64,000 bases of DNA, from positions 33,932-97,931 of IMG/VR virus record IMGVR_UViG_3300031992_000025, one strand, 5' to 3'. The position numbers and the translations under genes are program-made. Source of the stretch: a virus (Duplodnaviria > Heunggongvirae > Uroviricota > Caudoviricetes). The notes below the pieces were generated by a model. It did not search any database. It was given only the letters and a program-made list of their open reading frames with translations, and was not told the DNA's origin. This document shows, one piece after another, positions 2,121 to 32,877 of the stretch. Position 1 is the stretch's first letter, and the number at the start of each line of letters is the position of its first letter.

Positions 2121-4406
2121 TTGAAAGGAAAGGTGATTATTATTCGTACCTTACTTATTTTACGCGGAGCCCCTGGATGTGGTAAGTCAACATGGGTTAA
2201 AAACAATGGTTTATCCGCCTATACTTTATGTCCAGATGATATTCGTGTTATGTGTGCTTCAAGAGAATTGAAGGCAGATGGTGCTTTTGCTATTGCAAGA
2301 AATCATGCAGTTGAACAAGAAACCTGGAAAATTATTTTAGACTTACTTGAATACAGAATGTCTCGTGGCGAATTAACAGTTTTAGATGCTACGGCTTCAA
2401 AGACAAAAGATATTAAGCAATATAAAGAATTAGCAGACCAATACAGATATAGAATGTATTGCGTTGATTTTACTGATGTTCCTTTAGAAGTTTGTAAGAA
2501 ACAAAACTTGCAACGTCCAGAAGATAAAATTGTTCCAGAACAAGGCATTGAAAATATTTATGCTCGTTTTGCAACACAACCAGTTCCAGCTGGTGTTGAA
2601 GTTATTAAGCCAGATGAATTAGATAAGATTTTAGAAAAACCAATTGATTTATCTTCTTATAGAAAAATCGTTTTTATTGGTGATATTCATGGTTGCTATG
2701 ATACTTTAATGCAATATTTCAAAGATGGCTTAGAAGATGATGTTGAATATATTTTCTTAGGTGATTATATTGACCGTGGAAACCAAAATGCTGAAGTTAT
2801 GAATTGGTTATATTCTATTAAAGATCGCCCAAATGTTTGTTTATTAGAAGGTAATCATGAAAGACACTTACAAGCTTATGGTATGGGCTATGAAGCCAAA
2901 TCCAAAGAGTTTGAAGAAAAAACAAAAGGTCAATTAATTTTAGGTGGCTTTGATGAGAAAAAAGCTAGAATTTTCTATCGAAAGCTTCGTCAAATGTCCC
3001 ATTTTACTTATAATGGTATTGAAGTTTTAGCAACTCATGGCGGTATTCCATGTATGCGTGCAAATCTTACTTATATTCCTACATGCGCTTTCATTAATGG
3101 CGTTGGTGAATATAATGACTATCAAGATGTCGCTGATACTTGGATGAAAGAAACTGCTGAAAATCAATATCAAGTTCATGGCCATCGTAATACTGCACAA
3201 GACCCAGTTCAATTAGCTGACAGAGTTTTTAACTTAGAAGGTGAAGTTGAATTTGGTGGTAAATTAAGAATTGTTGAATTAACTTCTGATACTTTTAATG
3301 GCTGGGCTTTTGGTCATCCAGAAGCTGGTTTAGTTACTGGAACAAGATGGAATGTTATTGAGTTATCTAACTGTCAACCAATTACAGAAGATTTTAATGT
3401 TGAAAAGGCTCCTGTTGAAACCGTTGAACAAGCAGTTGAATATTTAAGAAACAATCAATTTGTCAAAGAAAAGAAATTAGGTAATGGTATTTCATCTTTC
3501 AACTTTACTCGTGAAGCTTTCTATTCTGCTAACTGGACAAGACAAACAGTTTTAGCACGCGGTTTATTTATCGATACAGACAATAATAAGATTATGGCGC
3601 GTTCATATGAAAAATTCTTCCGTATCAATGAAGTTCGTGAGACTGAAATGGTTGCTTTAAAGAATAGATTGAAGTTTCCAGTCAAAGCCTATGTTAAAGA
3701 AAATGGTTTTTTAGGTATTGTCTCTTATAACTATAAGACTGATGATTTATTTGTTGCAACTAAGTCTTCTGATAAGGGTGACTGTGCAGATTATTTTAAC
3801 AAAATGCTTGAACCATATAGAGAAAAGCTATTACATCTATTAAGAGCTATTTATAACTCCGAAGATCCAGATACTTATTCATTCGTCTTTGAGTGCGTCG
3901 ACCAAGAAAACGACCCACACATCATTAAATATGATAAGAGTGATATTTATTTGTTAGATGTAGTTTACAATAGATTAGACTTTGAGACTCTTCCATATTG
4001 GAGATTGAAAGAATTAGCTGAAACTCTTGGCTGTAAAGTCAAGACAGAGGCTTATACAATCAAAGATTTTGATGAGTTCAGAGATTTAGTAAATAGAGCT
4101 GAAGATGAAGATTATAAGTATAATGGAAATTATATTGAAGGTTATGTCTTCGTTGACCAAAATGGCTTTATGACTAAATTAAAGACAGGTTATTACAATT
4201 TCTGGAAACATATGAGAAGTGTTGCTGATTCAACTTTAAGAAGTGGTTCATATAGAAGAATGGGCTCATTACTTACAGTCCAAGGTAATCAATTTGCAGC
4301 CTTCTGTAAAGAGTGTTTTAACAAAGATAGAATTAAAGAAACAAAGTCTTACCCTTACAAAACTGACATTATTTCGTTAAGAGAAAAGTTCCTATTTAAC
4401 AAATAA
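2121..4406 (+). CDS. pnkp: Pnkp-like RNA repair enzyme: polynucleotide kinase / calcineurin-type phosphatase / ATP-dependent RNA ligase fusion
   Basis: N-terminal P-loop (ILRGAPGCGKST, Walker B LTVLD). Central GDIHG / GDYIDRG / GNHE phosphatase motifs as in lambda-phosphatase and Clostridium thermocellum Pnkp. C-terminal nucleotidyltransferase-like segment with KENGFLG (KxNG lysine motif). Starts at TTG/GTG after AGGAAAG RBS. No TGA codons. Confidence 0.75.
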   Translation: MKGKVIIIRTLLILRGAPGCGKSTWVKNNGLSAYTLCPDDIRVMCASRELKADGAFAIARNHAVEQETWKIILDLLEYRMSRGELTVLDATASKTKDIKQYKELADQYRYRMYCVDFTDVPLEVCKKQNLQRPEDKIVPEQGIENIYARFATQPVPAGVEVIKPDELDKILEKPIDLSSYRKIVFIGDIHGCYDTLMQYFKDGLEDDVEYIFLGDYIDRGNQNAEVMNWLYSIKDRPNVCLLEGNHERHLQAYGMGYEAKSKEFEEKTKGQLILGGFDEKKARIFYRKLRQMSHFTYNGIEVLATHGGIPCMRANLTYIPTCAFINGVGEYNDYQDVADTWMKETAENQYQVHGHRNTAQDPVQLADRVFNLEGEVEFGGKLRIVELTSDTFNGWAFGHPEAGLVTGTRWNVIELSNCQPITEDFNVEKAPVETVEQAVEYLRNNQFVKEKKLGNGISSFNFTREAFYSANWTRQTVLARGLFIDTDNNKIMARSYEKFFRINEVRETEMVALKNRLKFPVKAYVKENGFLGIVSYNYKTDDLFVATKSSDKGDCADYFNKMLEPYREKLLHLLRAIYNSEDPDTYSFVFECVDQENDPHIIKYDKSDIYLLDVVYNRLDFETLPYWRLKELAETLGCKVKTEAYTIKDFDEFRDLVNRAEDEDYKYNGNYIEGYVFVDQNGFMTKLKTGYYNFWKHMRSVADSTLRSGSYRRMGSLLTVQGNQFAAFCKECFNKDRIKETKSYPYKTDIISLREKFLFNK

Positions 4407-5050: not shown

Positions 5051-5118
5051 AGAAACTACGCTTATTTCTTACATCCGCCGAAGCGCACGGCTAATTGCGT
5101 TGCCATTCTATTTAGAGC
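5051..5118 (+). repeat. bipartite bulged-helix motif copy 11 (divergent)
   Basis: AGAAACTACGCTTATTTCT ... GAGCTAGTTCAGAT (AACTA-C-GC pairs GC-TAGTT). Confidence 0.5.
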
Positions 5119-5236
5119 TAGTTCAGATATTGCAGCAAACAGACTATAGATAATATTTAGCCAGAGCGGTACGACTTGTGGTCAAATCCCAGGAGGAGAA
5201 CAAGGAGACTGGGTGTCTGATGACTAGCTACGAGCA

Positions 5237-5399: not shown

Positions 5400-5462
5400 A
5401 GAGCTTGTGCTTATTTCTAAATTACGAATCTTGAAAATCCGCGACATTAGCCAAGCCAAAAT
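5400..5462 (+). repeat. bipartite bulged-helix motif copy 1
   Basis: AGAGCTTGTGCTTATTTCT ... TAGCCAAGCCAAAA (GCTTG/CAAGC double covariation); begins at promoter +1. Confidence 0.65.
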
Positions 5463-5515: not shown

Positions 5516-5546
5516 ATGTAAGCAGTGTCAATAAGACTTACAGTTA

Positions 5547-5600
5547 GAGCCTATACTTATTTCTTTAGAAAATATGGTATTCAAGTTAGTTAGGCCAAAT
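5547..5600 (+). repeat. bipartite bulged-helix motif copy 2
   Basis: AGAGCCTATACTTATTTCT ... AGTTAGGCCAAAT. Confidence 0.7.
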
Positions 5601-7775: not shown

Positions 7776-7885
7776 TTGTATAATAAATATATGATTATAA
7801 GCTAAATTAAAATGATAACTTCGGTTGTTATTTAGGGTACGATGTACTAATCTAGCTAACTAAGTTAATCAGTTTAGGAGTTACT

Positions 7886-8797
7886 ATGGCTGATACAACT
7901 TATACTGGTTGGAAAAGATGAAATCCAACATCTGAGGAATGAATTGATTTATATACAAATAATACAGTTCCATTCCAACTTAAAGAAAATGAATATTTAA
8001 TTGTTATGGCAACTGACGGCAGCACAACATTTTATTGCTATGAAAATGGCCAATTAAGAAAGTTTACTGGCGGTTCCATTAAAACAATTAAAGATACTAC
8101 CCCGGTTTTATTAGAAGAGCCAAAACCAAAGCAAGAGAGTAAACAACGATCTTCTACTCCAAAATATTCTAAGGGTAAGAATGTTGTAATTACTCCTAGA
8201 AATGAAGAACAAGTTTGTGCTTTTGACTTAATGAAAGACCCAACAAAAACAGTTAAATTGTTAACTGGAACTTGGGGCACAGGTAAAACCTTAATCTTAG
8301 TGTCTGCTGCATTAGAAGCTTTAAAAGCTGGACGTTTTAAAAGAATTGTCTGAATTAGAAATAATGTTGATGTTAAAGATACCAAAGATTTAGGTGCTTT
8401 ACCAGGTGAAGTAATTGATAAATTACTTCCATTCTTAGGACCTTTTATTGATCATGCTGGTGAAAACAGTGTTCGAACTATGCTAAATAAAGGAACTCTT
8501 GTTGTAGAACCTTTGCAATCTTTGAGGGGAAGAAATTTTGATAACACATTAATTATGTGTTCAGAAGCTGAAAACTTAACTAAAGAGCATATACAACTTA
8601 TTATTGCTCGTGCTGCTGAGGGCAGCGAAGTTTGGTTTGATGCTGATAACAGACAACGTGATAAAGCTTCTTTTGAGAAATCAAAAGGAATTGAAACACT
8701 TATTGAAAGATTTGCAGGACAAAAATTATTTGGGTATGTTCATTTAATTAAGTCTGAGCGTTCAAAGACTGCTGCAATGGCAGATTTATTAAATTAG
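7886..8797 (+). CDS. phoH: PhoH-like ATPase (three in-frame TGA read as sense)
   Basis: GTWGTGKT Walker A, LVVEPLQSLRGRNF, DADNRQRD motifs of PhoH family; frame continuous across TGA at about 7918, 7948 and 8351; RBS TAGGAGTTACT-ATG. Confidence 0.75.
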
Positions 8798-10720: not shown

Positions 10721-10797
10721 GTTGAAGCGAATCCGACGGTTTTGGATGACGGTCTGTGAAACCGTATCATAGGGTCCGACTCCCTAGCTTCAACCCA
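10721..10797 (+). tRNA. tRNA-His(GTG)
   Basis: anticodon loop CTGTGAA; 8-bp acceptor with extra 5' G (G-1). Confidence 0.7.
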
Positions 10798-10897: not shown

Positions 10898-11314
10898 ATG
10901 AAAGTTGTATTCTTAGACATTGATGGAGTCCTAAATGATGCAATCACAACAATGGACTTACTGGACGATAAGCCAAAGAAAGAGCATTTAGAGTGTCTAA
11001 AAGCAATTATTGATGCTACAGATGCTAAAATTGTCTTATCTTCAACTTGGCGATTATTCCCAAGCGCAAGAAATGATGTAAAAAATGCTCTAAGAAATGT
11101 CGGTCTTGAATTTATAGACAAAACAAAAGAACTTAGAGATAGAGCATCTGAAATTAAAGAATGGCTAAGTAGACACCCAGAAGTTGAAAAATTTGTAATC
11201 TTAGATGATGAAGAAATTTCTGGAAAGTTCCCTGATAACTTAGTTCAAACGACTTTCTACAGAGGCTTATTGCCAGAACATGTTGAAAAGGCAATAAAAA
11301 TCTTAAATTCTTAA
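10898..11314 (+). CDS. HAD-superfamily phosphatase-like protein
   Basis: VFLDIDGVLND motif I (DxDG), small 138-aa HAD-like fold; RBS AAAGGAACAGT-ATG. Confidence 0.5.
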   Translation: MKVVFLDIDGVLNDAITTMDLLDDKPKKEHLECLKAIIDATDAKIVLSSTWRLFPSARNDVKNALRNVGLEFIDKTKELRDRASEIKEWLSRHPEVEKFVILDDEEISGKFPDNLVQTTFYRGLLPEHVEKAIKILNS

Positions 11315-11349
11315 AAATTATATTTACAATTAGAAATGGTTGTAGTATA

Positions 11350-11580
11350 ATATAAATGTTGAATATGATAGCTGAAAAGACCATCACTCAGTAAGCTTGA
11401 ATAGAGTAGGTATGACGACTCCTGACACCGCTTAGTCGTCACGTCTATGGGCAAAATCTCATAGCAGCAGGCTAATGCTGTAAAACTTAGTCTAGGGTAC
11501 AGCTAATACGAACGTGGTAAAGGCCGAGGCCGAAGAAGGGCATAACAGGAGCGGACACCCTCTAAAGAGTGGGGCCACCA
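11350..11580 (+). ncRNA. candidate structured ncRNA ending in GGGGCCACCA
   Basis: ORF-free about 230 nt between promoter TTGTAGTATAATATAAAT and tRNA-Ile; internal hairpin TGACGACT..AGTCGTCA. Confidence 0.3.
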
Positions 11581-11585
11581 GATAT

Positions 11586-11661
11586 TGGAGCGTAGCTTAG
11601 TTGGTAAAGCACTCGGCCGATAACCGAGAGACCGCCGGTTCAAGTCCGGCCGCTCCAACCA
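11586..11661 (+). tRNA. tRNA-Ile(GAT)
   Basis: anticodon loop CCGATAA, acceptor TGGAGCG/CGCTCCA, CCA encoded. Confidence 0.8.
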
Positions 11662-11665
11662 ACAT

Positions 11666-11741
11666 AGGGGAGTAGCCAAGCGGTAAGGCATCGCCCTTTG
11701 AAGGCGACAGTACGAAGGTTCGATCCCTTCCTCCCCTGCCA
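11666..11741 (+). tRNA. tRNA-Gln(TTG)
   Basis: anticodon stem TCGCC/GGCGA loop CTTTGAA. Confidence 0.75.
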
Positions 11742-11744
11742 ATA

Positions 11745-11833
11745 TGCTGTAATAATGTAACAGGTAGCAGGTCCTAGCGCCATAGACGTATGGCAAATGC
11801 AGAGGGGAATTGGTTCAAGTCCAATTTACAGCA
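11745..11833 (+). ncRNA. tRNA-like element lacking an anticodon (hairpin GCCATA-GACG-TATGGC in place of anticodon arm)
   Basis: acceptor TGCTGTA/TACAGCA, T-arm AATTGG-TTCAAGT-CCAATT. Confidence 0.35.
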
Positions 11834-11840
11834 ACTATCT

Positions 11841-11915
11841 TGAGATGTCGACAAGCGGTAAGTCATCTGGCTCTGAACCAGATATTCCTTGGTTCGAATC
11901 CAAGCATCTCAGCCA
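11841..11915 (+). tRNA. tRNA-Gln(CTG)
   Basis: anticodon stem TCTGG/CCAGA loop CTCTGAA, CCA encoded. Confidence 0.75.
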
Positions 11916-11917
11916 GT

Positions 11918-11982
11918 AGAGCCTATACTTATTTCTGTCTAGAGACAATTGCCTGCAACGCGATCATTATAGTTAGGCCAAT
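11918..11982 (+). repeat. bipartite bulged-helix motif copy 3 (AGAGCCTATACTTATTTCT ... AGTTAGGCCAA)
   Basis: GCCTA-T-AC pairs GT-TAGGC; 34-nt insert; immediately after tRNA-Gln CCA. Confidence 0.7.
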
Positions 11983-11986
11983 AAAT

Positions 11987-12060
11987 AGGAGTTTGGTATA
12001 GTGGCCGTGCCTTGGTCTCCAAAACCAATGAGGTGAGTTCGATTCTTACAACTCCTGCCA
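11987..12060 (+). tRNA. tRNA-Trp(CCA)
   Basis: anticodon stem TTGGT/ACCAA loop CTCCAAA. Confidence 0.75.
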
Positions 12061-12065
12061 AATAT

Positions 12066-12154
12066 AGAAGGTTGGGAGAGCTGGTCTATTCCGCTTGTCT
12101 AGAAAACAAGAATGTCGCAAGGCATCATCCGTTCGAATCGGATACCTTCTGCCA
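12066..12154 (+). tRNA. tRNA-Ser(AGA), type II, A34
   Basis: anticodon stem CTTGT/ACAAG loop CTAGAAA, long variable arm; anticodon assignment tentative. Confidence 0.5.
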
Positions 12155-12158
12155 GAAT

Positions 12159-12246
12159 GGAGAGTTGGCCGAGTGGTCGAAGGCGTCTGTCTTGAAAACA
12201 GAAGTGGGGCAACCCACCTGGGGTTCGAATCCCTAACTCTCCGCCA
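12159..12246 (+). tRNA. tRNA-Ser(TGA)
   Basis: anticodon stem TCTGT/ACAGA loop CTTGAAA, long variable arm. Confidence 0.8.
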
Positions 12247-12291
12247 TAAAAACTGTTTACAACTCAGTATAAATGTTGTATAATATAAAAT

Positions 12292-12366
12292 GCGGGTATA
12301 GACAAGTGGTTAAGTCATGCGCCTTTCACGCGTATATCGCCGGTTCGAATCCGACTACCCGTACCA
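12292..12366 (+). tRNA. tRNA-Glu(TTC)
   Basis: anticodon loop CTTTCAC, preceded by promoter TTGTATAATATAAAAT. Confidence 0.7.
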
Positions 12367-12477
12367 AATTAATTTAATATTAGTACCTACTTGCTTAATG
12401 CTAGCAACAAGCAGACAAAAAAGAATGCCAGGTGAAACCGCTTTTACAGGTTTAGGTTGGGAGTAGCCACTTATTAT

Positions 12478-12552
12478 GGGTCATTAGCTCAATGGTAGAG
12501 CGGCCGGCTGTTAACCGGTTGACGACTGTTCGATTTCAGTCATGGCCCGCCA
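12478..12552 (+). tRNA. tRNA-Asn(GTT)
   Basis: anticodon stem GCCGG/CCGGT loop CTGTTAA. Confidence 0.75.
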
Positions 12553-12556
12553 TACA

Positions 12557-12660
12557 TGCGGTTGTTCGAAATTGGTATACGGTAATAGTTAAGCTATTAC
12601 AAGGCACTGGCAAGCATGCTGAAGTCATGTGTTTAGAGGTTCAAGTCCTCTCATCCGCAA
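12557..12660 (+). ncRNA. atypical long tRNA-like element (about 104 nt)
   Basis: T-arm AGAGG-TTCAAGT-CCTCT, acceptor-like GCGGTTG/CATCCGC, extra hairpin GTAATAG-TTAAG-CTATTAC. Confidence 0.3.
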
Positions 12661-12665
12661 CAAAT

Positions 12666-12760
12666 ATGCCCTTGGTCGTCTAATATGGTTAAGACGCGGC
12701 GTTATAAAGATAGAAGTGTACAGCTATCAAGTTGAGATGTGGTTACAATCCACTAAGGGG
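12666..12760 (+). ncRNA. atypical long tRNA-like element (about 95 nt)
   Basis: closing helix GCCCTT/AAGGGGC, T-arm GTGG-TTACAAT-CCAC, no clean anticodon arm. Confidence 0.3.
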
Positions 12761-12770
12761 CAGCTAAAAT

Positions 12771-12845
12771 GGATCGCTCGTATATCAGCTAGTATACTTG
12801 GCTGTCTACCATGGGAGGAGGGTTCGATTCCCTCGCGGTCCGCCA
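12771..12845 (+). tRNA. tRNA-Asp(GTC)
   Basis: anticodon loop CTGTCTA (one stem mismatch), acceptor GGATCGC/GCGGTCC. Confidence 0.55.
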
Positions 12846-12847
12846 AA

Positions 12848-12931
12848 AGAGCCTATACTTATTTCTTAATGGTTTTTGAAGGTTCGATTCCTTCATTACC
12901 CGCTTTGGGTGATGATATTAGTTAGGCCAAA
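12848..12931 (+). repeat. bipartite bulged-helix motif copy 4 enclosing a permuted tRNA minihelix
   Basis: AGAGCCTATACTTATTTCT + T-arm GAAGG-TTCGATT-CCTTC + acceptor 3' ATTACCC-G + CTTT + complementary 5' strand GGGTGAT + AGTTAGGCCAA. Confidence 0.65.
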
Positions 12932-12982
12932 GTTTATTTAGAAAGGAGAAAGCTTATGTAATTGTTAAAGGAGGACATAACG

Positions 12983-13234
12983 ATGAGTTATAGTCGAAAA
13001 CAATTTGATAAGCAAAAGCTAAAAAAGCTTGCAAAAAATAGCTGTAATGGCTGGAAAGGTGGCGCATATTATAGTCGCTATTTAGGCCATTATGTTCGTT
13101 GGTGGAAAAGTAAAGGTAGGAATAGTAGATATGCTTACTATAAAAAATTCTATCGCAAACGAATGAGAAGATTTGCAAACAAAAATGGTTGGTATTCTAA
13201 AAAAGAGTTCGATTTAATTTGGACTTGTTGGTAA
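12983..13234 (+). CDS. small basic Arg/Lys/Tyr/Trp-rich protein
   Basis: RBS AAAGGAGGACATAACG-ATG; 83 aa, highly basic. Confidence 0.4.
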   Translation: MSYSRKQFDKQKLKKLAKNSCNGWKGGAYYSRYLGHYVRWWKSKGRNSRYAYYKKFYRKRMRRFANKNGWYSKKEFDLIWTCW

Positions 13235-13239
13235 AATTA

Positions 13240-13253
13240 TTGTATAATATAAT
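13240..13253 (+). promoter_or_regulatory. extended -10 promoter TTGTATAATATAAT
   Basis: drives ncRNA candidate plus tRNA-Met cluster. Confidence 0.55.
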
Positions 13254-13254
13254 A

Positions 13255-13537
13255 GAGCTTACTTAACTGTTGGCTTAGAAGCAGCCATCATATAATGAGT
13301 GACCAACAGAACGTAAGGTGGTGCATCACTGAAATGAAGCGTCCCTAAATTACTGGATGAGAAATGGGACGTAAAACTGTCGGGAGTCAATAAAAATCTA
13401 TAATTTGGTAAGGGTGGTCAGAGTACCATTCTTAACTAAGAGCGTGCTGTAGGCACAGTAAATGCAGTATAATCAATGTTATAGAGTGCCCTAAGAGTCT
13501 TTGGCGTAGTAGCACATAAGTAAGTTCTTTATAACAT
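13255..13537 (+). ncRNA. candidate structured ncRNA (about 280 nt) transcribed from TTGTATAATATAAT promoter
   Basis: ORF-free, GC-richer than surroundings, directly upstream of tRNA-Met. Confidence 0.35.
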
Positions 13538-13613
13538 TGCGGGGTGCTAGCAGCGGTAGCTAACTGGGCTCATAACCCAGAGGTCGTAGGTTCGATTCCT
13601 ACCCCCGCGACCA
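13538..13613 (+). tRNA. tRNA-Met(CAT), initiator-like
   Basis: anticodon stem CTGGG/CCCAG (three G-C pairs next to loop) loop CTCATAA. Confidence 0.7.
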
Positions 13614-13617
13614 ATAT

Positions 13618-13732
13618 TGCATGATAGTCGAGTGGAAGAGACGACCGCATACATAAGCGGTGGACACAGCTGAAAGTAAATTCTAGATAGGAGTAAGCTA
13701 GAGCGGAGGTTCGATTCCTTCTCATGCGACCA
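13618..13732 (+). ncRNA. atypical 115-nt tRNA-like with 8-nt anticodon-type loop and about 45-nt extra arm
   Basis: acceptor TGCATGA/TCATGCG-A-CCA, T-arm GGAGG-TTCGATT-CCTTC, stem ACCGC/GCGGT with loop ATACATAA. Confidence 0.35.
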
Positions 13733-13734
13733 GA

Positions 13735-14010
13735 GGCAGGTTTTCATCGATTTTAGAGCCTCGCACATAAGAAAATCGATAGATAGACGGACTATGTACA
13801 AGATATGTCTAATCTAAAAAAGGAAAGGTTGTACACCAGAAATTTGGTCGGCTAGTTGGCGTAAACCTAGCAATAGGAGCGTTTGCAACAGACCCTCAAT
13901 AACTGCAGTGAGAGGGCAAGCACGAGCTTACAAGAAGAGACTGCGACGGATGAAATATTCCTAGAGCTCTTGAGCTGAGAGCACAAGGTTCACTGGGCAA
14001 AGAACAAAAC
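13735..14010 (+). ncRNA. candidate structured ncRNA (about 275 nt)
   Basis: ORF-free, 9-bp hairpin ATCGATTTT/AAAATCGAT with loop AGAGCCTCGCACATAAG. Confidence 0.3.
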
Positions 14011-14012
14011 AC

Positions 14013-14089
14013 GGACCGTTGGTGTAGTGGCCTTGCATGCTTCTCTGTCACGGAAGAGATCACGAGTTCGAATCTCGTACGGTCCGCCA
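14013..14089 (+). tRNA. tRNA-Asp(GTC)
   Basis: anticodon stem CTTCT/GGAAG loop CTGTCAC, acceptor GGACCGT/ACGGTCC. Confidence 0.75.
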
Positions 14090-14094
14090 TAGTT

Positions 14095-14202
14095 AGAGCC
14101 AATACTTATTTCTTAGCGAGGTAGCTCAGAGGTTAGAGCAGCAGATATTAATCTGAAGGTCGTAGGTTCAAGTCCTTCCCTTGCCAGGCCTAGTTTGGCC
14201 GA
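14095..14202 (+). repeat. bipartite bulged-helix motif copy 5 enclosing an anticodon-less tRNA-like unit
   Basis: AGAGCCAATACTTATTTCT ... GTTTGGCC (GCCAA/TTGGC covariation); insert 14115-14186 has acceptor, D-arm, T-arm and hairpin CAGAT-ATTA-ATCTG instead of anticodon loop. Confidence 0.65.
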
Positions 14203-14205
14203 TCT

Positions 14206-14282
14206 GGCTGGGTGGCCAAGCTGGTTAAGGCACAAAGCTCATACCTTTGGGATCGTCAGTTCAAATCTGACCCCAGCTACCA
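14206..14282 (+). tRNA. tRNA-Met/Ile2(CAT), elongator-type
   Basis: anticodon stem CAAAG/CTTTG loop CTCATAC. Confidence 0.7.
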
Positions 14283-14285
14283 TTT

Positions 14286-14363
14286 AGAGCTTATACTTAT
14301 TTCTTGAATGCTGTGGTTCGAATCCACCTTGCCTGTGGGGAGCGGAAAGTAGTTAAGCCAAAT
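14286..14363 (+). repeat. bipartite bulged-helix motif copy 6 enclosing tRNA 3'-fragment
   Basis: AGAGCTTATACTTATTTCT ... AGTTAAGCCAAAT (GCTTA/TAAGC covariation); insert has T-arm GTGG-TTCGAAT-CCAC. Confidence 0.65.
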
Positions 14364-14365
14364 AC

Positions 14366-14441
14366 GCACTCTTAACTCAACTGGGAGAGTGCTACCCTTA
14401 CAAGGTAGAAGTTGTAGGTCCGAGTCCTACAGAGTGCACCA
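14366..14441 (+). tRNA. tRNA-Val(TAC)
   Basis: anticodon stem CTACC/GGTAG loop CTTACAA. Confidence 0.8.
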
Positions 14442-14581
14442 TGGCATGTATGCAATTAGAAAACGCAACCTGCCGGTAAAGTAGGCGCTCCGAGTAGTCT
14501 CGAAGTAGGAGCTTTGTGGAATATTGCTAAATCGAGACTTTAGTAACAATATTCTAGGTGTAATTCCCACCATGCCAACCA
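14442..14581 (+). ncRNA. 140-nt tRNA-like RNA (acceptor TGGCATG/CATGCCA-A-CCA) with large internal insertion
   Basis: 7-bp terminal helix plus ACCA; T-loop-like GGTG-TAATTCC-CACC. Confidence 0.3.
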
Positions 14582-14585
14582 ATTT

Positions 14586-14660
14586 GCAGACGTAGGACAA
14601 TGGTTAGTCCATCGCCTTGCCAAGGCGAATATACGGGTTCGATTCCCGCCGTCTGCTCCA
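14586..14660 (+). tRNA. tRNA-Gly(GCC)
   Basis: anticodon stem TCGCC/GGCGA loop TTGCCAA. Confidence 0.7.
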
Positions 14661-14731
14661 CCAGGACAGATAAAGATTAGTTTCTTTATTAGGTTCTAAG
14701 GCTGGACAAATCGATAAAACCAGCCAGTTAT

Positions 14732-14806
14732 GCGGGTGTCGTCCAACGGTCAGGGCCTCTGCCTTCCAAGCAGAAGATACCGGTTCGATTCCGGCCACCC
14801 GCTCCA
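14732..14806 (+). tRNA. tRNA-Gly(TCC)
   Basis: anticodon stem TCTGC/GCAGA loop CTTCCAA. Confidence 0.75.
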
Positions 14807-14834
14807 TTAGCAGTATTTAAAAGGAGAAAAAACA

Positions 14835-14930
14835 ATGAAAACAATGAAACTCAGTCGTCTAAGTTGTCGAAGCTGTAAAGCTTGTTTTCGTTGTCTCAGT
14901 ATAAATACCGCGTTAGCTCAGCTGGATTAG
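14835..14930 (+). CDS. Cys-rich micro-ORF (31 aa, C-x2-C-x2-C-x2-C) reading into tRNA-Arg
   Basis: strong RBS AAAAGGAGAAAAAACA-ATG. Confidence 0.25.
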   Translation: MKTMKLSRLSCRSCKACFRCLSINTALAQLD

Positions 14931-14984
14931 AGCATTTGGCTACGAACCAAAAGGTCGAGGGTCCGAATCCTTCACGCGGTGCCA
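14907..14984 (+). tRNA. tRNA-Arg(ACG)
   Basis: anticodon stem TTTGG/CCAAA loop CTACGAA. Confidence 0.75.
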
Positions 14985-14985
14985 A

Positions 14986-15060
14986 GCTTTGGTAGCCAAG
15001 TGGTTAAGGCTTCGGTCTGCAACACCGACATCGTGGGTTCGAATCCCACCCAAAGCTCCA
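14986..15060 (+). tRNA. tRNA-Cys(GCA)
   Basis: anticodon stem TCGGT/ACCGA loop CTGCAAC. Confidence 0.8.
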
Positions 15061-15095
15061 AAATCTAGCTTTTTATGTTGTATAATATAATAGTT

Positions 15096-15173
15096 CCTCC
15101 CGTAGCTTAGTCAGGTTAAAGCGAACGCCTTATAAGCGTTAGATCGGTGGTTCAAATCCACCCAGGAGGACCA
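15096..15173 (+). tRNA. tRNA-Ile(TAT)
   Basis: anticodon stem AACGC/GCGTT loop CTTATAA; preceded by promoter TTGTATAATATAAT. Confidence 0.6.
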
Positions 15174-15248
15174 TCAAGCTAGTTATTTGCCTGTCAGAAG
15201 CCCTGTTAGAGGAAGCTGGGCTTATAATTAGCTTATTTTAATAAAGAG

Positions 15249-15845
15249 GTGCTTATGGAAATTAGATTTGTTGATGAAAGCAAAGAAGCCACTGGTAAAG
15301 TAAAAGAGGCACAAGAAGCATTAGATGAGCTCATTGATAAAAAGTCTGGTGAAGCTAAGGAAAATCCAGATTATTTAGCATTAATGGCAAAATATAAAAA
15401 AAGCTTAACTAATATTAATAAAGATGCTTGCGGCAGTCCTTGGGAATGGAGTTGGGGCTTAGACTATTTTGTTGAATTTCTTCGTTTTATGCAAGAATAT
15501 TATAAATTAGGCATTAATGTTTGGGCAATGGAGAGACGAGATGAAGATCCTAAAAAATATAAAAATTATCCAACTAGATATGAGAGTATTTCTAAAGCTC
15601 TTAGCTACTATGATAAGTGGCAAAATTTAGAAGAAGAATATATTACAGTAATTGATCACCCAGAGACACGAAAAACACATGAAAATGATGATGGAACAAT
15701 TACTGTTGATGATCTTGGCTTTCATTGTGAATATAAATTTGGTTCTGCTAAGAAAACATATAGAAAACTTCATAAGGATCAAAAGAAATATAAAAAGTTA
15801 TTTTTTAAAACTGTAATGAACTATTTAGAAGAATGGTGGGATTAA
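15249..15845 (+). CDS. hypothetical protein
   Basis: RBS AAAGAGGTGCTT-ATG. Confidence 0.5.
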   Translation: MLMEIRFVDESKEATGKVKEAQEALDELIDKKSGEAKENPDYLALMAKYKKSLTNINKDACGSPWEWSWGLDYFVEFLRFMQEYYKLGINVWAMERRDEDPKKYKNYPTRYESISKALSYYDKWQNLEEEYITVIDHPETRKTHENDDGTITVDDLGFHCEYKFGSAKKTYRKLHKDQKKYKKLFFKTVMNYLEEWWD

Positions 15846-15883
15846 TTAAGTCTCATTGAAAATCTCACTGAAGAAAACTTGCT

Positions 15884-15971
15884 GGAGGCATGGAGTAATG
15901 GTATCTCATCACCCTGCTAAGGTGACCATCGGGCAACTGATGTCCGCGTTCGAGTCGCGGTGCCTCCGCCA
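15884..15971 (+). tRNA. tRNA-Ser(GCT)
   Basis: anticodon stem TCACC/GGTGA loop CTGCTAA, long variable arm. Confidence 0.8.
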
Positions 15972-15973
15972 TA

Positions 15974-16306
15974 TTGAAAGGAAATTTTATGAAAGCATAT
16001 TTTATAGCAACTGCAAATGATTGTAAAAAAGATGAGCTTGGTTGGTTAGACTGGGGTAAATCTTTACGTGTTGTTGGTTTCTTTGAAGACATGGAAACTG
16101 CAAAAAAAGCAGTAGAAGAAAATTGGGGAGATATATATGAAGATGGTTATTATAAATATGCTATTATAGAAGAAAGAGAAGATGGTCTATATTCTCATTG
16201 TGAAAGCCCATTATTCTATAAGTGGGAAGGCACAATAAAAGATGGTGGCTATAAACAAATAGAAAGGCCAGAAGCTACAAAAGGCTTTTGTAATTTCACA
16301 ATCTAG
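15974..16306 (+). CDS. hypothetical protein
   Basis: RBS GAAAGGAAATTTT-ATG. Confidence 0.5.
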   Translation: MKGNFMKAYFIATANDCKKDELGWLDWGKSLRVVGFFEDMETAKKAVEENWGDIYEDGYYKYAIIEEREDGLYSHCESPLFYKWEGTIKDGGYKQIERPEATKGFCNFTI

Positions 16307-16308
16307 TT

Positions 16309-16392
16309 GCCCAGATGGTGGAATGGTAGACACCCGTGGCTTAGAACCACGTGCCGAAAGGCGTGCAGGTTCAAATCCTGTTCTGGGCACCA
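16309..16392 (+). tRNA. tRNA-Leu(TAG)
   Basis: anticodon stem CGTGG/CCACG loop CTTAGAA, long variable arm. Confidence 0.8.
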
Positions 16393-16399
16393 TTATTCT

Positions 16400-16485
16400 G
16401 CGCGAGTGATGAAATGGTAGACATGTGAGTCTAAGAAGCTCATGCCAGCAATGGTGTGTGGGTTCAAGTCCCACCTTGCGCACCA
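16400..16485 (+). tRNA. tRNA-Leu(AAG), type II, A34
   Basis: anticodon stem TGAGT/GCTCA loop CTAAGAA, long variable arm; anticodon assignment tentative. Confidence 0.5.
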
Positions 16486-16528
16486 TATTTATTTAAATTA
16501 AATTGTATAATATATAGAGGATTATTAT

Positions 16529-16858
16529 ATGTATACTTTACAAGAATTAATTGAAAAAGGCTATATTGATAGCATTAAAACTGATGGGACTCATCTTGGT
16601 GATGGTTATACCATTGTTGTAAAATTAAGTAGATATTCTATTGGCAGAATTACTATTGATGTTGGTATTGATGAATATTTAGATGATGCAGTTAGACTTA
16701 TTAATGGTATTATCAATATTCAAGAAGAATTAAATAAGGAAGCTACATCAAAAGAAAGTCCAATAGTTAGAAAAGCACCTGCAGAAGAATTAAAAGAAGT
16801 ACTTACTGGAACAGAAATTAAAGAAACAAAAATTAGCCCAGAGGATTATGCTGAATAA
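16529..16858 (+). CDS. hypothetical protein
   Basis: RBS AGAGGATTATTAT-ATG after promoter TTGTATAATATAT. Confidence 0.5.
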   Translation: MYTLQELIEKGYIDSIKTDGTHLGDGYTIVVKLSRYSIGRITIDVGIDEYLDDAVRLINGIINIQEELNKEATSKESPIVRKAPAEELKEVLTGTEIKETKISPEDYAE

Positions 16859-17031
16859 TGAAACATATAATTAAAGATGGTATTTATTATTTATATTCAG
16901 ATACTGATGCTGAACTAATGTCAATTACACTTACCAGTGAACCAGAAAATCAAGTTATTATAAAAACAGAGAATGAAGTTTATGCTGGTCCCGTAAAATT
17001 TATTAAATTTTCTGAAGATATAACGACAAAA
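16858..17031 (+). CDS. small hypothetical protein (57 aa)
   Basis: ATG overlapping previous stop (TAATGA). Confidence 0.35.
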
Positions 17032-17039
17032 TAAGCCGT

Positions 17040-17345
17040 ATATTATATACAGGGGTGTAAGTTATGTAGTAGACCCGCGGTCTTCAACCTCGAAAGTTGC
17101 TATGAATGACTACGAAACTGGTGCCTTATATTGGAAACATTATAAGTGCAGGTGATGATATCGGTGAACCCTGTCAAATGGGAATACCGAGGGAACGAAA
17201 GGCCCGTAGAGAGTAGATAATCACCCAGCTAAACAGAAATGTATGCTGAAGATGTACTCCAGACCACAAACAGAAATGGTGGTGAAAACCATAGTGGTAA
17301 GCAAAACCGGGAAACTAGGTGCAAGCCCTAGCACCCCTGCCAATA
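17040..17345 (+). ncRNA. candidate structured ncRNA (about 300 nt)
   Basis: ORF-free, GC-richer; contains ACAGAAATGG...AAAACCGGGAAACTAGG segments; 3' end ...GCACCCCTGCCAA. Confidence 0.35.
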
Positions 17346-17835: not shown

Positions 17836-18450
17836 ATGAAATTAAGAAACAAAATTGCTGCTATTACAGCAGCCGCCATGTTAGCATTCACAGGTGTTGG
17901 TTTTGCTGCATGGACATTTACACAAGAAAGAGCAGCTGAAGTTGCAGTTACTGATAGAGTTTCAGTAGGCATTGAATTAAATGATAACTTTAAACTTTAC
18001 AATGCTGATGACGATGCTGAGATTTCTAACCTTTATATTATTTGTGATGCACCAGCTTCAGAAAGCGGTATTCTCGCTGGCGAAGGAGTTTACTGGGCAA
18101 GTGATGCTGCAGGTGCAACAAAAGTAGATGATGTTTATCTTAAAGGTACTCTTAAAAAAGTTGAAGAAGACAATATTTTAGATAAAGCTTCTGTTACAGT
18201 TACATTTGGTGCAACACATTCAATGACATCTACATATATTACAATTGGTGCTTTTACAGCCCCAGCCAATGTTGATGTTACAGTTGCCAATAATGCAGAT
18301 GTTCAAAGTGCTGACTTTAATTTACCAACATTAGCATATGTTGCAGCTAAAATTCCACATTCTGTTGATGAATTAACTGCTATGAATACAGCTCTTGCAA
18401 CTGAATTATCTGGTGCAAAAGTTAGTTTTACTGCTCAAATTATTGCTTAG
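17836..18450 (+). CDS. secreted protein with SipW-cognate (TasA/camelysin-class) signal peptide
   Basis: MKLRNKIAAITAAAMLAFTGVGFAAWTFTQ: hydrophobic core followed by G-x-G-F-A-A-W-T-F motif; directly upstream of SipW-like peptidase. Confidence 0.5.
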   Translation: MKLRNKIAAITAAAMLAFTGVGFAAWTFTQERAAEVAVTDRVSVGIELNDNFKLYNADDDAEISNLYIICDAPASESGILAGEGVYWASDAAGATKVDDVYLKGTLKKVEEDNILDKASVTVTFGATHSMTSTYITIGAFTAPANVDVTVANNADVQSADFNLPTLAYVAAKIPHSVDELTAMNTALATELSGAKVSFTAQIIA

Positions 18451-24822: not shown

Positions 24823-24895
24823 AAGAGCCTATACTTATTTCTACAAATAAAAATGAAGATCTAAGAACAAAGCTAGTTAGGCCAAAGTAAAAATT
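24823..24895 (+). repeat. bipartite bulged-helix motif copy 7
   Basis: AGAGCCTATACTTATTTCT ... AGTTAGGCCAAAG; preceded by 9-bp hairpin GTGAATTGC..GCAATTCAC. Confidence 0.65.
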
Positions 24896-26247: not shown

Positions 26248-26370
26248 AGAACCTGTGCTTATTTCTAATAGGGCAAGCAGGTTGTCGCTGGTTCGAATCC
26301 AGCCTTCTCCACCATTAATTGGGGAAGTAGCTCAGTTGGTAGAGCACCCGCAAAATATTAGCCAGGTCAT
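26248..26370 (+). repeat. bipartite bulged-helix motif copy 8 enclosing permuted tRNA halves (3' half, linker, 5' half)
   Basis: AGAACCTGTGCTTATTTCT + T-arm GCTGG-TTCGAAT-CCAGC + CTTCTCC-A-CCA (ends 26314) + TTAATT + GGGGAAG-TA-GCTC-AGTTGGTA-GAGC-A-CCCGC (26321-26351) + partner GCCAGGT (26361-26367); acceptor strands GGGGAAG/CTTCTCC fully complementary (G3-U70). Confidence 0.65.
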
Positions 26371-26373
26371 ATT

Positions 26374-26940: not shown

Positions 26941-27010
26941 AGAGCCTATGCTTATTTCTAGCTCAACGAGAGCGTCAAACATTTAATTTGAAGGTATAGC
27001 TAGGCCAAAA
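26941..27010 (+). repeat. bipartite bulged-helix motif copy 9
   Basis: AGAGCCTATGCTTATTTCT ... TAGCTAGGCCAAAA (AC to GC paired by GT to GC change). Confidence 0.65.
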
Positions 27011-27252: not shown

Positions 27253-27310
27253 ATAAAATATTTTGCATTTGACTTAAAATTATTTGCTAAATTAATTGAG
27301 GTTCAAAATT

Positions 27311-28974: not shown

Positions 28975-29042
28975 TCTAATTTAATAATAAATAAAAGGGC
29001 AGATAAAAACTGCTTTTTTAGTATACTTAGAAATTTAATCTT

Positions 29043-32864: not shown

Positions 32865-32877
32865 GAGGTATTTTAAT

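What the first reader, a model, noticed from the sequence alone, without database searches (positions are those of the whole stretch)
11350..17345. Additional ORF-free structured-RNA candidates and oversized tRNA-like RNAs inside the first tRNA island
Four ORF-free segments sit downstream of consensus promoters, are GC-richer than the flanks, and contain long perfect hairpins: 11350-11580, 13255-13537, 13735-14010 and 17040-17345.

Three elements have tRNA acceptor/T-arm closures but are 100-140 nt long with extra arms or insertions:
- 12557-12660;
- 13618-13732 (8-nt anticodon-type loop ATACATAA);
- 14442-14581 (ends CATGCCA-A-CCA).

They could be intron-containing tRNAs, tRNA-derived regulatory RNAs, or RNase P/tmRNA-like RNAs.
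Basis: seen in the sequence. Interest (0 to 1): 0.5.

Follow-up and report, generated by a model that had tools for sequence, protein, structure and literature searches.

The report
Intron-split suppressor tRNA, ribosome-mimic RNA
In the tRNA gene cluster of a large uncultivated phage, one flagged segment is a stop-codon-reading tRNA interrupted by a self-splicing intron, a second is a small RNA that copies a key functional site of the bacterial ribosome, and the others are swollen tRNA look-alikes or spacers with no support.

Summary
The seven flagged segments are real: ORF-free on the + strand and 40-47% GC against 34% for the window. They are four different things.

- **17051-17342:** a tRNA-Trp-like opal suppressor (anticodon UCA) split after U34 by a 217-nt group I intron (17085-17301). 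Its P2-P9 core and P3/P7 pseudoknot covary across 11 phage tRNA introns. The phage has in-frame TGA inside conserved domains.
- **13255-13527:** a member of a large, unannotated phage RNA family that mimics the 23S rRNA GTPase-associated centre (H42-H44, the L11/thiostrepton site). It shares 24 identical bases with E. coli 23S. The closing stem, the inserted arm and the 1082-1086 tertiary pair all covary. The family has at least 119 IMG/VR hits, also occurs in cultured phages, and has no Rfam family.
- **12557-12660, 13618-13732 and 14442-14581:** cloverleaf-like RNAs with extra arms. The closest known thing is T4 species 1 RNA. There is no evidence of an intron.
- **11352-11585 and 13733-14012:** no significant fold and no known family. 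Conservation is partial for the first and absent for the second.

Nothing resembles RNase P or tmRNA.

The parts
17051..17084 (+). Exon 1 of the tRNA-Trp-like (UCA) suppressor: acceptor AGGGGUG, D region, anticodon stem GCGGU, loop CUU up to U34
   Evidence: ARAGORN intron mode. Exons resemble the intron-less tRNA(UCA) genes of relatives L016 and L013. The spliced product is called tRNA(tca), 75 nt.
17085..17301 (+). Group I intron, 217 nt, inserted after U34. It has P1/IGS (CUGGUG), P2 (GAAA loop), P3 GGUGAU/AUCACC, P4 UCGGUG/UACCGA, J4/5 AA/AA, P5, P6, P7 GAGUA/UACUC, P8 CAGC/GCUG, P9 (GAAA loop), and a terminal G.
   Evidence: Compensatory changes against the 87% identical copy in L028. On 11 phage tRNA introns, 96% of cells are paired and 25 of 45 pairs change on both sides. 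Family members L074 and L048 pass the Rfam RF00028 threshold.
17302..17342 (+). Exon 2: CAAA, anticodon stem ACCGG, T-arm CUAGG-UGCAAGC-CCUAG, acceptor CACCCCU, G73, encoded CCA
   Evidence: The T-stem shows a compensatory change in L028, whose T-loop is the canonical UUCGAUC.
13220..13248 (+). Promoter-like site (TGGACT-17-TATAAT) in front of the rRNA-mimic RNA
13255..13527 (+). RNA that mimics the 23S rRNA GTPase-associated centre. Closing stem 13258-13265 with 13517-13524; H43 copy 13268-13291; junction AUAAUGAGU; inserted domain of about 200 nt; H44-like UUUGGCGUAGUAGCAC at 13500-13515.
   Evidence: 24-nt exact match to E. coli 23S (E 4e-9). Rfam LSU model positions 1093-1148. Fold z -3.3. 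91.5% identical copy in L022 with 4 compensatory pairs. Family covariation.
12557..12660 (+). tRNA-like RNA: acceptor with one U-U mismatch, T-arm AGAGG-UUCAAGU-CCUCU, a 7-bp extra hairpin in place of the D-arm, no CCA
   Evidence: Fold. No homolog in any held locus. Absent from L028, where tRNA-Asn abuts tRNA-Asp.
13618..13732 (+). tRNA-like RNA: 7-bp acceptor, 8-nt anticodon loop AUACAUAA, about 43-nt variable region, canonical T-arm, encoded ACCA
   Evidence: Rfam tRNA 31.9 bits against a threshold of 29. Fold. No homolog.
14442..14581 (+). tRNA-like RNA: 6-bp acceptor, D-like arm, anticodon-like arm CCUGC-CGGUAAA-GUAGG (G at position 33), two extra hairpins, T-like arm GGUG-UAAUUCC-CACC, encoded ACCA
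   Evidence: Fold z -1.8. 98% identical in L022 5426-5571 and absent from L028.
11352..11585 (+). ORF-free transcript or leader between a strong promoter (11323-11351) and tRNA-Ile. Only its 5' ~60 nt and 3' ~30 nt are shared with L022.
   Evidence: Weak DUF805b hit at 11368-11412, below threshold. No IMG/VR match for its conserved 26-mer.
13733..14012 (+). ORF-free spacer between the tRNA-like RNA at 13618-13732 and tRNA-Asp. No support for a structured RNA.
   Evidence: z -0.4. No Rfam hit. No homolog. No promoter.

Best explanation
The finding lumps together four kinds of object in the tRNA island of a TGA-recoded jumbo phage.

**1. 17051-17342: an opal-suppressor tRNA gene split by a group I intron.**
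- The gene is tRNA-Trp-like, with A1-U72, G73 and anticodon UCA. The intron sits between U34 and C35, the same site as the classical bacterial tRNA-Leu(UAA) intron.
- Proposed mechanism: the intron folds and splices itself out by the usual two transesterifications. The resulting 75-nt tRNA, with loop CUUCAAA and encoded CCA, is trimmed, charged with Trp and reads the in-frame UGA codons of this phage.
- The need to splice may delay or gate the code switch.

**2. 13255-13527: a stand-alone RNA that mimics the 23S rRNA GTPase-associated centre.**
- It is transcribed from its own promoter and probably released at its 3' end when RNase P cuts the adjoining tRNA-Met.
- It reproduces H42-H43-H44, with a variable domain inserted at the base of H44.
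- It most likely acts as a decoy that binds a host factor recognising this site, with ribosomal protein uL11 as first candidate. That could alter ribosome composition or RelA-dependent signalling.

**3. 12557-12660, 13618-13732 and 14442-14581: tRNA-derived stable RNAs with extra arms.** They are probably co-processed with the tRNAs, as T4 species 1 RNA is. Their function is unknown.

**4. 11352-11585 and 13733-14012: lineage-specific transcribed spacers or leaders.**

**Shown versus inferred.** Shown: structures, covariation, splice-site logic, rRNA identity, TGA recoding and distribution. Inferred: splicing activity, Trp charging, timing role, uL11 binding and processing.
For: **Suppressor tRNA and intron**
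The spliced sequence is a 75-nt tRNA(tca).
- The exons match the intron-less tRNA(UCA) genes of relatives.
- The 87% identical copy in L028 shows compensatory changes in P2, P3 (two pairs), P5, P7, P9 and the T-stem.
- The P4-J4/5-P5 pattern gives at least 119 IMG/VR hits. At that site RF00028 passes its threshold in L074 and L048.
- On 11 tRNA-embedded introns, 96.3% of cells are paired and 25 of 45 pairs change on both sides. The covariation score is 0.43 against 0.15 for shuffles and at most 0.09 for slid structures.
- The 5' splice site is always after CUU. The bases 5' of the guide sequence covary with the first bases of exon 2, as expected for P10.
- TGA as sense: a PhoH domain (5e-32) runs across an in-frame TGA, and a DUF559 domain runs across two.

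**rRNA mimic**
- Searches show 24 identical bases with E. coli 23S.
- 28 of 29 IMG/VR hits to that 24-mer are not rRNA.
- In the core alignment, all 8 closing-stem pairs, all 4 pairs of the inserted arm, and the 1082-1086 pair (CG, UA, AU) covary. The score is 0.59 against 0.14 for shuffles.
- The 3' motif gives at least 119 more hits. Of 106, 78 carry an H43-like hairpin with covariation at 1058/1080 and 1062/1076.
- About 10 of 17 family loci lie in or beside tRNA or tmRNA arrays.
- Complete copies were read in cultured phages pf16 and BF, where nothing is annotated. The Erwinia, Aeromonas and Paenibacillus phage records also gave BLAST matches.

**tRNA-like RNAs**
- Their minimum-energy folds are cloverleaves with extra arms.
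- T4 rnaC, 139 nt and next to the T4 tRNA cluster, folds the same way.
Against: **Suppressor tRNA and intron**
- This copy gets no RF00028 hit even at E<=10.
- P1 is short and has a U-U mismatch in all UCA-type introns.
- The T-loop is UGCAAGC, not UUCRANY, and the D-arm is weak. This copy could be decaying.
- The closest relative, L022, lacks the element and carries a different tRNA(UCA). Only 64 kb of the genome is visible.
- There are no expression data.

**rRNA mimic**
- This copy departs from the family consensus. It lacks the GG/CC pairs at the top of the closing stem, has an A-U pair at 1082-1086, and has loop UAGU instead of UAAU.
- No binding partner is shown, and no neighbouring protein is conserved.
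- Absence from Rfam and from the searched papers does not prove that nobody has described it.

**tRNA-like RNAs**
- Two of the three have no homolog at all, so selection cannot be shown. Their fold z-scores are weak.
Confidence: 0.72

Rival explanations
1. The element at 17051-17342 is a decaying tRNA pseudogene colonised by a selfish intron. It contributes nothing to decoding, and the real suppressor lies elsewhere in the genome.
For: Non-canonical T-loop and weak D-arm. U-U mismatch in P1. Relatives L022 and L028 carry another, intron-less tRNA(UCA) with a long variable arm, and L022 lacks this element. GIY-YIG homing-endonuclease genes sit next to it in L028 and L029.
Against: No other tRNA(UCA) is found in the 64-kb window, yet TGA interrupts conserved domains. 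Acceptor, anticodon stem and T-stem are kept, with a compensatory change against L028. All intron helices are intact. Independent UCA-type introns in L034, L118 and L089 keep the same arrangement.
Confidence: 0.2
2. The segment 13255-13527 is a piece of host 23S rDNA picked up by illegitimate recombination and has no function of its own.
For: 24 bases are identical to 23S rRNA.
Against: Only the GAC core resembles rRNA. The flanks form a covarying closing stem that real rRNA lacks, and a variable domain is inserted in H44. The same design recurs in more than 100 unrelated viral contigs and in cultured phages of Gram-negative and Gram-positive hosts.
Confidence: 0.03
3. The oversized tRNA-like elements are working tRNAs with unusual decoding. 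One example would be 13618-13732 acting as a +1 frameshift or four-base decoder through its 8-nt loop. Alternatively they are decoys for host anticodon nucleases.
For: 13618-13732 passes the Rfam tRNA threshold and encodes ACCA. Its loop reads A-U-(ACAU)-A-A, the shape of a quadruplet-decoding loop (inference from sequence). The phage carries a full tRNA repair kit, namely a kinase-phosphatase-Rnl1 fusion, HAD_SAK_2 and a Thg1-like protein. That implies pressure from tRNA-cutting defences.
Against: 14442-14581 has G rather than U at position 33. 12557-12660 has no proper D-arm and no CCA. No homologs exist to test conservation. No frameshift site was sought or found.
Confidence: 0.2
4. The rRNA-mimic RNA does not sequester uL11. 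Instead it mimics the GTPase centre to trap another ligand, such as a translational GTPase, RelA, an rRNA-modifying or rRNA-cutting defence enzyme, or a thiopeptide.
For: Both factor-contacting loops (the 1067 and 1095 loops) are kept in most family members. The element sits with tRNA and tmRNA genes, a 'translation kit' context.
Against: No candidate partner is encoded nearby. By established biochemistry, uL11 is the protein known to bind this isolated domain tightly.
Confidence: 0.3

Closest known systems
Group I introns in bacterial tRNA anticodon loops (cyanobacterial and plastid tRNA-Leu(UAA); Azoarcus tRNA-Ile)
   Same: Same insertion site as the tRNA-Leu(UAA) intron (after U34). Small size (about 200-250 nt). 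Guide sequence GAG or GUG just before P2, GAAA loops on P2 and P9, P3/P7 pseudoknot, terminal G. One family member (L136) actually sits in a tRNA-Leu(UAA) gene.
   Different: The host gene is a phage-borne opal suppressor tRNA. The UCA-type introns have GUG instead of GAG, which gives a U-U mismatch in P1. A 2014 review states that all phage group I introns known then were in protein-coding genes (PMC3984707).
Suppressor tRNAs of stop-codon-recoded gut phages (Borges et al., bioRxiv 10.1101/2021.08.26.457843)
   Same: Low-GC large phage, TGA used as sense in a subset of genes, tRNA(UCA) encoded by the phage.
   Different: Here the suppressor is hidden from default tRNA finders by an intron. 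That paper found a suppressor in only 35% of TGA-recoded genomes and suspected non-canonical tRNAs.
The 58-nt L11/thiostrepton-binding domain of 23S rRNA (GTPase-associated centre), and ribosomal-protein mRNA leaders that mimic rRNA sites
   Same: Same three-helix layout. H43 is identical, the 1095-type hairpin is kept, and the 1082-1086 pair is kept through covariation.
   Different: It is a free-standing phage RNA with its own closing stem and a 66-222-nt domain (in the members aligned) inserted between positions 1090 and 1091. It lies in tRNA arrays rather than in front of a ribosomal-protein gene.
Phage T4 species 1 and species 2 RNAs (rnaC, rnaD)
   Same: Stable RNAs of 119-139 nt at the end of a phage tRNA cluster. 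rnaC folds as an acceptor-like stem plus a canonical T-arm with extra arms. A GIY-YIG endonuclease gene lies in the cluster.
   Different: No sequence similarity was seen. The elements here lie between tRNAs rather than at the end of the cluster, and they differ from each other.

Membership tests
Group I intron (17085-17301) | Conserved core of P3-P9 with the P3/P7 pseudoknot | tested here: met
   96.3% of cells paired. All 6 P3 pairs, 2 of 5 P7 pairs, 3 of 4 P8 pairs and 5 of 5 P9 pairs change on both sides. Score 0.43 against 0.15 for shuffles.
Group I intron (17085-17301) | 5' splice site after a U paired to a G of the internal guide sequence (P1); guide also pairs with exon 2 (P10) | tested here: inconclusive
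   U34 can pair with the G of UGGUG, and CAA of exon 2 can pair with the bases 5' of it. P10 covaries across the family. However, P1 has a U-U mismatch in all UCA-type copies.
Group I intron (17085-17301) | Terminal G at the 3' end of the intron | tested here: met
   every copy ends in G before exon 2 (...GUGGUAAG in the window). This is the only junction that gives both a U at -1 and a G at the end.
Group I intron (17085-17301) | Score at or above the Rfam RF00028 gathering threshold | tested here: not met
   no hit at E<=10 for the window copy. Relatives sharing the P4-P5 pattern (L074 61.3 bits, L048 60.6 bits) pass.
Group I intron (17085-17301) | Self-splicing with guanosine | not testable with these tools
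   Needs in vitro transcription or RNA-seq.
tRNA-Trp(UCA) opal suppressor (spliced 17051-17342) | Cloverleaf with anticodon UCA in a 7-nt loop | tested here: met
   ARAGORN calls the 75-nt spliced sequence tRNA(tca), loop CUUCAAA.
tRNA-Trp(UCA) opal suppressor (spliced 17051-17342) | Bacterial Trp identity set: A1-U72 and G73 (from knowledge of E. coli TrpRS) | tested here: met
   The sequence shows A1-U72 and G73, as in the phage's own tRNA-Trp(CCA) and in the tRNA(UCA) genes of relatives. Charging itself was not tested.
tRNA-Trp(UCA) opal suppressor (spliced 17051-17342) | Canonical T-loop (UUCRANY) and D-loop GG | tested here: not met
   The window T-loop is UGCAAGC and the D-arm has 3 weak pairs. 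The L028 copy has UUCGAUC.
23S rRNA GTPase-associated-centre mimic (13255-13527) | H43 hairpin with the 1067 loop | tested here: met
   24 of 24 bases identical to E. coli 23S.
23S rRNA GTPase-associated-centre mimic (13255-13527) | H44-type hairpin (1095 loop) and the 1082-1086 tertiary pair | tested here: met
   GGCGUAGUAGC keeps the G-C and C-G pairs. Columns 39 and 43 covary as CG, UA or AU (A-U in the window copy).
23S rRNA GTPase-associated-centre mimic (13255-13527) | Closing helix in the place of H42 | tested here: met
   All 8 pairs covary, and the window copy is in register.
23S rRNA GTPase-associated-centre mimic (13255-13527) | Binds uL11 or thiostrepton as the rRNA domain does | not testable with these tools
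   Needs a binding assay.
tmRNA or RNase P RNA (any of the segments) | Match to the family model; for tmRNA, an Ala-type acceptor (G3-U70) and a tag reading frame | tested here: not met
   No Rfam hit. No ARAGORN tmRNA at default settings. The acceptor stem of 17051-17342 is fully Watson-Crick.
Intron-containing tRNA (12557-12660, 13618-13732, 14442-14581) | A removable insert whose excision leaves a canonical tRNA, with a recognisable intron core or splice motif | tested here: not met
   Only 13618-13732 gets an ARAGORN intron call (Pro agg, 35 nt). That call conflicts with its own well-formed 8-nt-loop arm. No group I core is present, and the inserts lie in the D or variable regions.
T4 species 1-like tRNA-derived stable RNA (the three oversized elements) | Lies in a phage tRNA cluster; acceptor-like closing stem plus T-arm; 100-140 nt | tested here: met
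   Stable accumulation and processing were not tested.

The most novel reading that the evidence does not exclude
The RNA at 13255-13527 belongs to a widespread and so far undescribed class of phage RNAs. These are free-standing copies of the ribosome's GTPase-associated centre that act as molecular decoys. By capturing uL11, or another factor that docks on this site, they would let phages of many hosts retune translation or blunt the RelA-dependent stringent response. In the same island, the group I intron in the opal-suppressor tRNA would serve as a timer for the switch to the TGA=Trp code.
Probability: 0.35. Interest if true: 0.85.

Novelty: new variant of a known kind. Interest (0 to 1): 0.7.

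Why it matters
**Hidden suppressor tRNAs.** Studies of recoded phages could not find a suppressor tRNA in most TGA-recoded genomes. An intron-split suppressor that default tRNA finders miss is a concrete explanation. It also adds a possible control point, splicing, for the switch of genetic code during infection.

**Introns in phage tRNA genes.** The same data show that group I introns do occur in phage tRNA genes, which a 2014 review said had not been seen.

**A copy of a ribosomal site as a phage RNA.** A phage RNA family that copies the L11/thiostrepton site of the ribosome, down to covarying tertiary pairs, would be a new way for viruses to interfere with translation or stress signalling. 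It occurs in cultured phages (pf16 of Pseudomonas putida, BF of Serratia; BLAST matches also in Erwinia jumbo phages), so it can be tested directly.

Tried and rejected
- **Rfam.** The gathering and E<=10 scans found only tRNAs, a sub-threshold LSU fragment and a weak DUF805b hit. Rfam also missed the true group I intron, so its silence elsewhere carries little weight.
- **GenBank phages.** A megablast of the island gave no relative.
- **Single-protein searches of IMG/VR.** Two island genes found nothing. Relatives came only through the large protein database and contig look-ups.
- **tmRNA reading of 17040-17345.** Rejected: no G3-U70 pair, and exon homology is to tRNA(UCA).
- **Integron attC reading of the repeated motif.** The motif contains GTTAGGC, but the GTT covaries away, so this was rejected.
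- **HDV-like 'theta' ribozyme reading of that motif.** Rejected on topology. The paper gives no sequence to compare.
- **Genome-collection scan for the rRNA mimic.** Uninformative: the chosen pattern (…GAGT) is also the native 23S sequence of Firmicutes.
- **Other rRNA similarity.** None of the other segments resembles E. coli 16S, 23S or 5S.
- **Conserved neighbours of the mimic.** None found.
- **Conserved 26-mer of 11352-11585.** No IMG/VR match.
- **Literature searches.** A phage GAC mimic and phage permuted tRNAs returned nothing relevant.

Full report
**Setting**

The window is an AT-rich (34% GC) stretch of an uncultivated phage. All genes run on the + strand. There are two tRNA islands with 38 ARAGORN tRNAs, and GenBank holds no close relative. 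The window is identical to an ENA metagenome contig. Graded relatives were reached through homologs of the 204-aa protein at 17836-18450. The useful ones are L022 (protein 93% identical), L028 and L029 (64%), plus IMG/VR contigs of 220-237 kb.

The phage reads TGA as sense in a subset of genes:
- Allowing TGA lengthens many ORFs.
- A PhoH domain (5e-32) runs straight across an in-frame TGA in 7856-8797.
- A DUF559 domain runs across two TGAs in 27296-28123.

It also carries a tRNA repair kit: a kinase-phosphatase-Rnl1 ligase fusion at 2121-4406, HAD_SAK_2 at 10898-11314, and a Thg1-like protein at 32851-33789.

**Checking the observation**

All seven segments lack meaningful + strand ORFs under code 11 and code 4. 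They are 40-47% GC. Promoter-like sites precede only 11352 and 13255. Only 13250-13537 (z -3.3) and 17040-17345 (z -3.2) fold better than shuffles. The values for 11350-11585 and 13733-14012 are not significant.

**17051-17342: a suppressor tRNA split by a group I intron**

Default tRNA finders miss this element. With introns allowed, ARAGORN calls tRNA(tca).

The exons (AGGGGUG…GCGGU CUU / CAAA ACCGG…CACCCCU G CCA) match the intron-less tRNA(UCA) genes of relatives L016 and L013. They share A1-U72 and G73 with the phage's tRNA-Trp(CCA).

Only one junction leaves a U before the intron and a G at its end. That places the intron at 17085-17301 (217 nt) and gives the spliced loop CUUCAAA.

Evidence that the insert is a structured group I intron:
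- An 87% identical copy in L028 and L029 shows compensatory changes in every proposed helix and in the T-stem.
- The P4-J4/5-P5-P4' string TCGGTGAA…AATACCGAGGG recurs in at least 119 IMG/VR stretches. These carry the classical GUAGAGACUA and AAGAUAUAGUCC elements. Rfam's group I model passes its threshold at that site in L074 and L048.
- A subset sits in tRNA genes with anticodons UCA, UCU, UAU or UAA. All are split after CUU, the position of the classical tRNA-Leu(UAA) intron.
- On 11 such introns the P2-P9 structure with the P3/P7 pseudoknot is 96% paired, and 25 of 45 pairs change on both sides. Shuffled and slid controls score far lower.
- The bases 5' of the guide sequence covary with the start of exon 2, as P10 requires.

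Weak points:
- RF00028 does not score this copy.
- P1 has a U-U mismatch in all UCA-type introns.
- The T-loop here is UGCAAGC.
- L022 lacks the element and carries another tRNA(UCA).

Literature context: a 2014 review says all phage group I introns then known were in protein genes. Borges et al. found suppressors in only 35% of TGA-recoded phages and suspected non-canonical tRNAs.

**13255-13527: a mimic of the ribosome's GTPase-associated centre**

A sub-threshold Rfam hit to LSU rRNA led to a 24-base exact match with E. coli 23S H43, the 1067 loop (E 4e-9).

The same 24-mer occurs in 29 IMG/VR stretches. Only one of these is true rRNA. Most of the rest share one design:
- a closing stem;
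- GGA-UGUUGGCUUAGAAGCAGCCAUCAU;
- YUAARGAGU;
- a variable inserted domain;
- UUUGGCGUARWAGCAC, then A and the closing stem.

This is H42-H43-H44 with an insertion between positions 1090 and 1091.

On a core alignment of 14 members, all 8 closing-stem pairs and all 4 pairs of the inserted arm covary. The tertiary pair equivalent to U1082-A1086 appears as C-G, U-A or A-U. The score is 0.59 against 0.14.

Searching with the 3' motif alone gave at least 119 more hits. Of 106, 78 have an H43-like hairpin, now with covariation at 1058/1080 and 1062/1076.

The window copy has a 91.5% identical homolog in L022 at a different place in the island, with four compensatory pairs.

About 10 of 17 family loci lie in or next to tRNA or tmRNA arrays. 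No neighbouring protein is shared. Twelve typical members hit no Rfam family.

The element also gave BLAST matches in cultured phages: Pseudomonas pf16 (inside its tRNA cluster), Serratia BF, Erwinia jumbo phages, Aeromonas 4_4572 and Paenibacillus Pd_22F. Full copies, with nothing annotated over them, were read in pf16 and BF. I found no paper describing it.

The isolated rRNA domain is known to fold on its own and to bind uL11 and thiostrepton. A decoy for uL11 or another ligand of this site is therefore the most economical mechanism. This is inference.

**The three oversized tRNA-like elements**

| Element | Features | Conservation |
|---|---|---|
| 13618-13732 | Passes the tRNA threshold (31.9 bits); proper acceptor, T-arm and ACCA; 8-nt loop; about 43-nt variable region | No homolog |
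| 14442-14581 | All four arms plus two extra hairpins; G at position 33 | 98% conserved in L022, absent from L028 |
| 12557-12660 | Acceptor and T-arm, but a hairpin in place of the D-arm and no CCA | No homolog |

None has an intron core. T4 rnaC (139 nt) sits next to the T4 tRNA cluster and folds the same way. That is the closest precedent, and its function is still unknown.

**11352-11585 and 13733-14012**

The first shares only its ends with L022. It has a weak DUF805b-like hairpin below threshold and no IMG/VR match. The second has no homolog, no family hit, no promoter and no significant fold. I treat both as lineage-specific transcribed spacers.

**Verdict**

Two of the seven segments are of real interest: an intron-hidden opal suppressor, and a member of a large, apparently undescribed family of rRNA-mimic RNAs.

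Noticed in passing
window 5400-5460, 5546-5599, 11918-11982, 12848-12931, 14095-14203, 14286-14362, 24824-24886, 26248-26371, 26941-27009, 28284-28399 (perhaps also 5051-5127); about 60 copies in L001-L020, L022, L028: A conserved two-part motif, 5'-AGA-N5-U-RCU-UAUUUCU … AGY-N5'-C(AA)-3'. The two N5 arms pair and covary freely (GCCUA/UAGGC, GCUUG/CAAGC, ACCUG/CAGGU and others). It starts 2-4 nt after tRNA CCA ends, or sits in 5' leaders, for example in front of the conserved gene at 5692. The cargo between the arms varies widely. It does not fit a BHB splice motif, an attC site or an HDV-like ribozyme.
   Followed up: partly
window 26248-26371 and 28284-28399; L001, L003, L004, L006, L008, L010, L011, L022, L028: In many motif cassettes the cargo is a circularly permuted tRNA cloverleaf. 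The order is anticodon side, T-arm, acceptor 3' strand (sometimes ACCA), a short loop, acceptor 5' strand, then D-arm. Joining the two ends in silico gives perfect 5-bp anticodon stems, for example 28284 gives CCCGG-CUUGUAA-CCGGG (Thr UGU). The phage encodes a kinase-phosphatase-Rnl1 ligase that could seal such ends. No paper on permuted tRNA genes in phages was found.
   Followed up: partly
window 12848-12931, 14286-14362, 14095-14203: Other motif cassettes inside the finding's span carry only a T-arm plus a closed acceptor hairpin (a 'minihelix'). One carries a whole tRNA whose anticodon loop has 6 nt (UAUUAA, 14114-14187; ARAGORN calls it 'tRNA-???'). L028 has an equivalent.
   Followed up: no
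window 2121-4406, 10898-11314, 32851-33789: A tRNA repair and processing kit: a fusion of AAA_33 kinase, Metallophos phosphoesterase and T4-type RNA ligase 1; a HAD_SAK_2 ('Swiss Army Knife RNA repair') protein inside the island; and a Thg1-like 3'-5' nucleotidyltransferase.
   Followed up: partly
window 7856-8797, 27296-28123, 29031-29852, 45090-52484, 57960-60359, 61169-62311: These reading frames contain in-frame TGA codons and look like proteins when TGA is read as Trp. The PhoH and DUF559 domains span TGA positions. Other genes contain no TGA. This fits a partial TGA-to-Trp code switch.
   Followed up: partly
window 10722-10797, 11747-11835, about 12668-12765: Three further non-canonical tRNA-like elements that default tools missed. 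The first is a tRNA-His(GUG) with an 8-bp acceptor stem and T-loop UCCGACU (fold z -3.05). The second has an acceptor plus T-arm but no anticodon arm and no CCA. The third has an acceptor, a D-arm and a T-like arm, and is 91% conserved in L022.
   Followed up: partly
L022 7359-7739, L028 7376-7763, L029 696-1083; window 16392-16400: Relatives carry a tmRNA gene (tag DKTFNPAFIASNSFVGARA) between the two tRNA-Leu genes. They also carry an intron-less tRNA(UCA) with a long variable arm next to the intron-split one. The window has neither.
   Followed up: no
L024 9888-9966: A c-di-GMP-I riboswitch (43.6 bits against a threshold of 35) lies just upstream of the homolog of the 204-aa protein in a 70%-identical relative. 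No such hit appears in front of 17836 in the window.
   Followed up: no
L045, L046, L057, L087, L093: In these IMG/VR phages the same type of group I intron has a 3' exon CAAAACCG followed by a tRNA-Trp(CCA)-like 3' part. The sequence 5' of the intron is not tRNA-like. This may be a rearranged or degenerate intron-tRNA junction.
   Followed up: no
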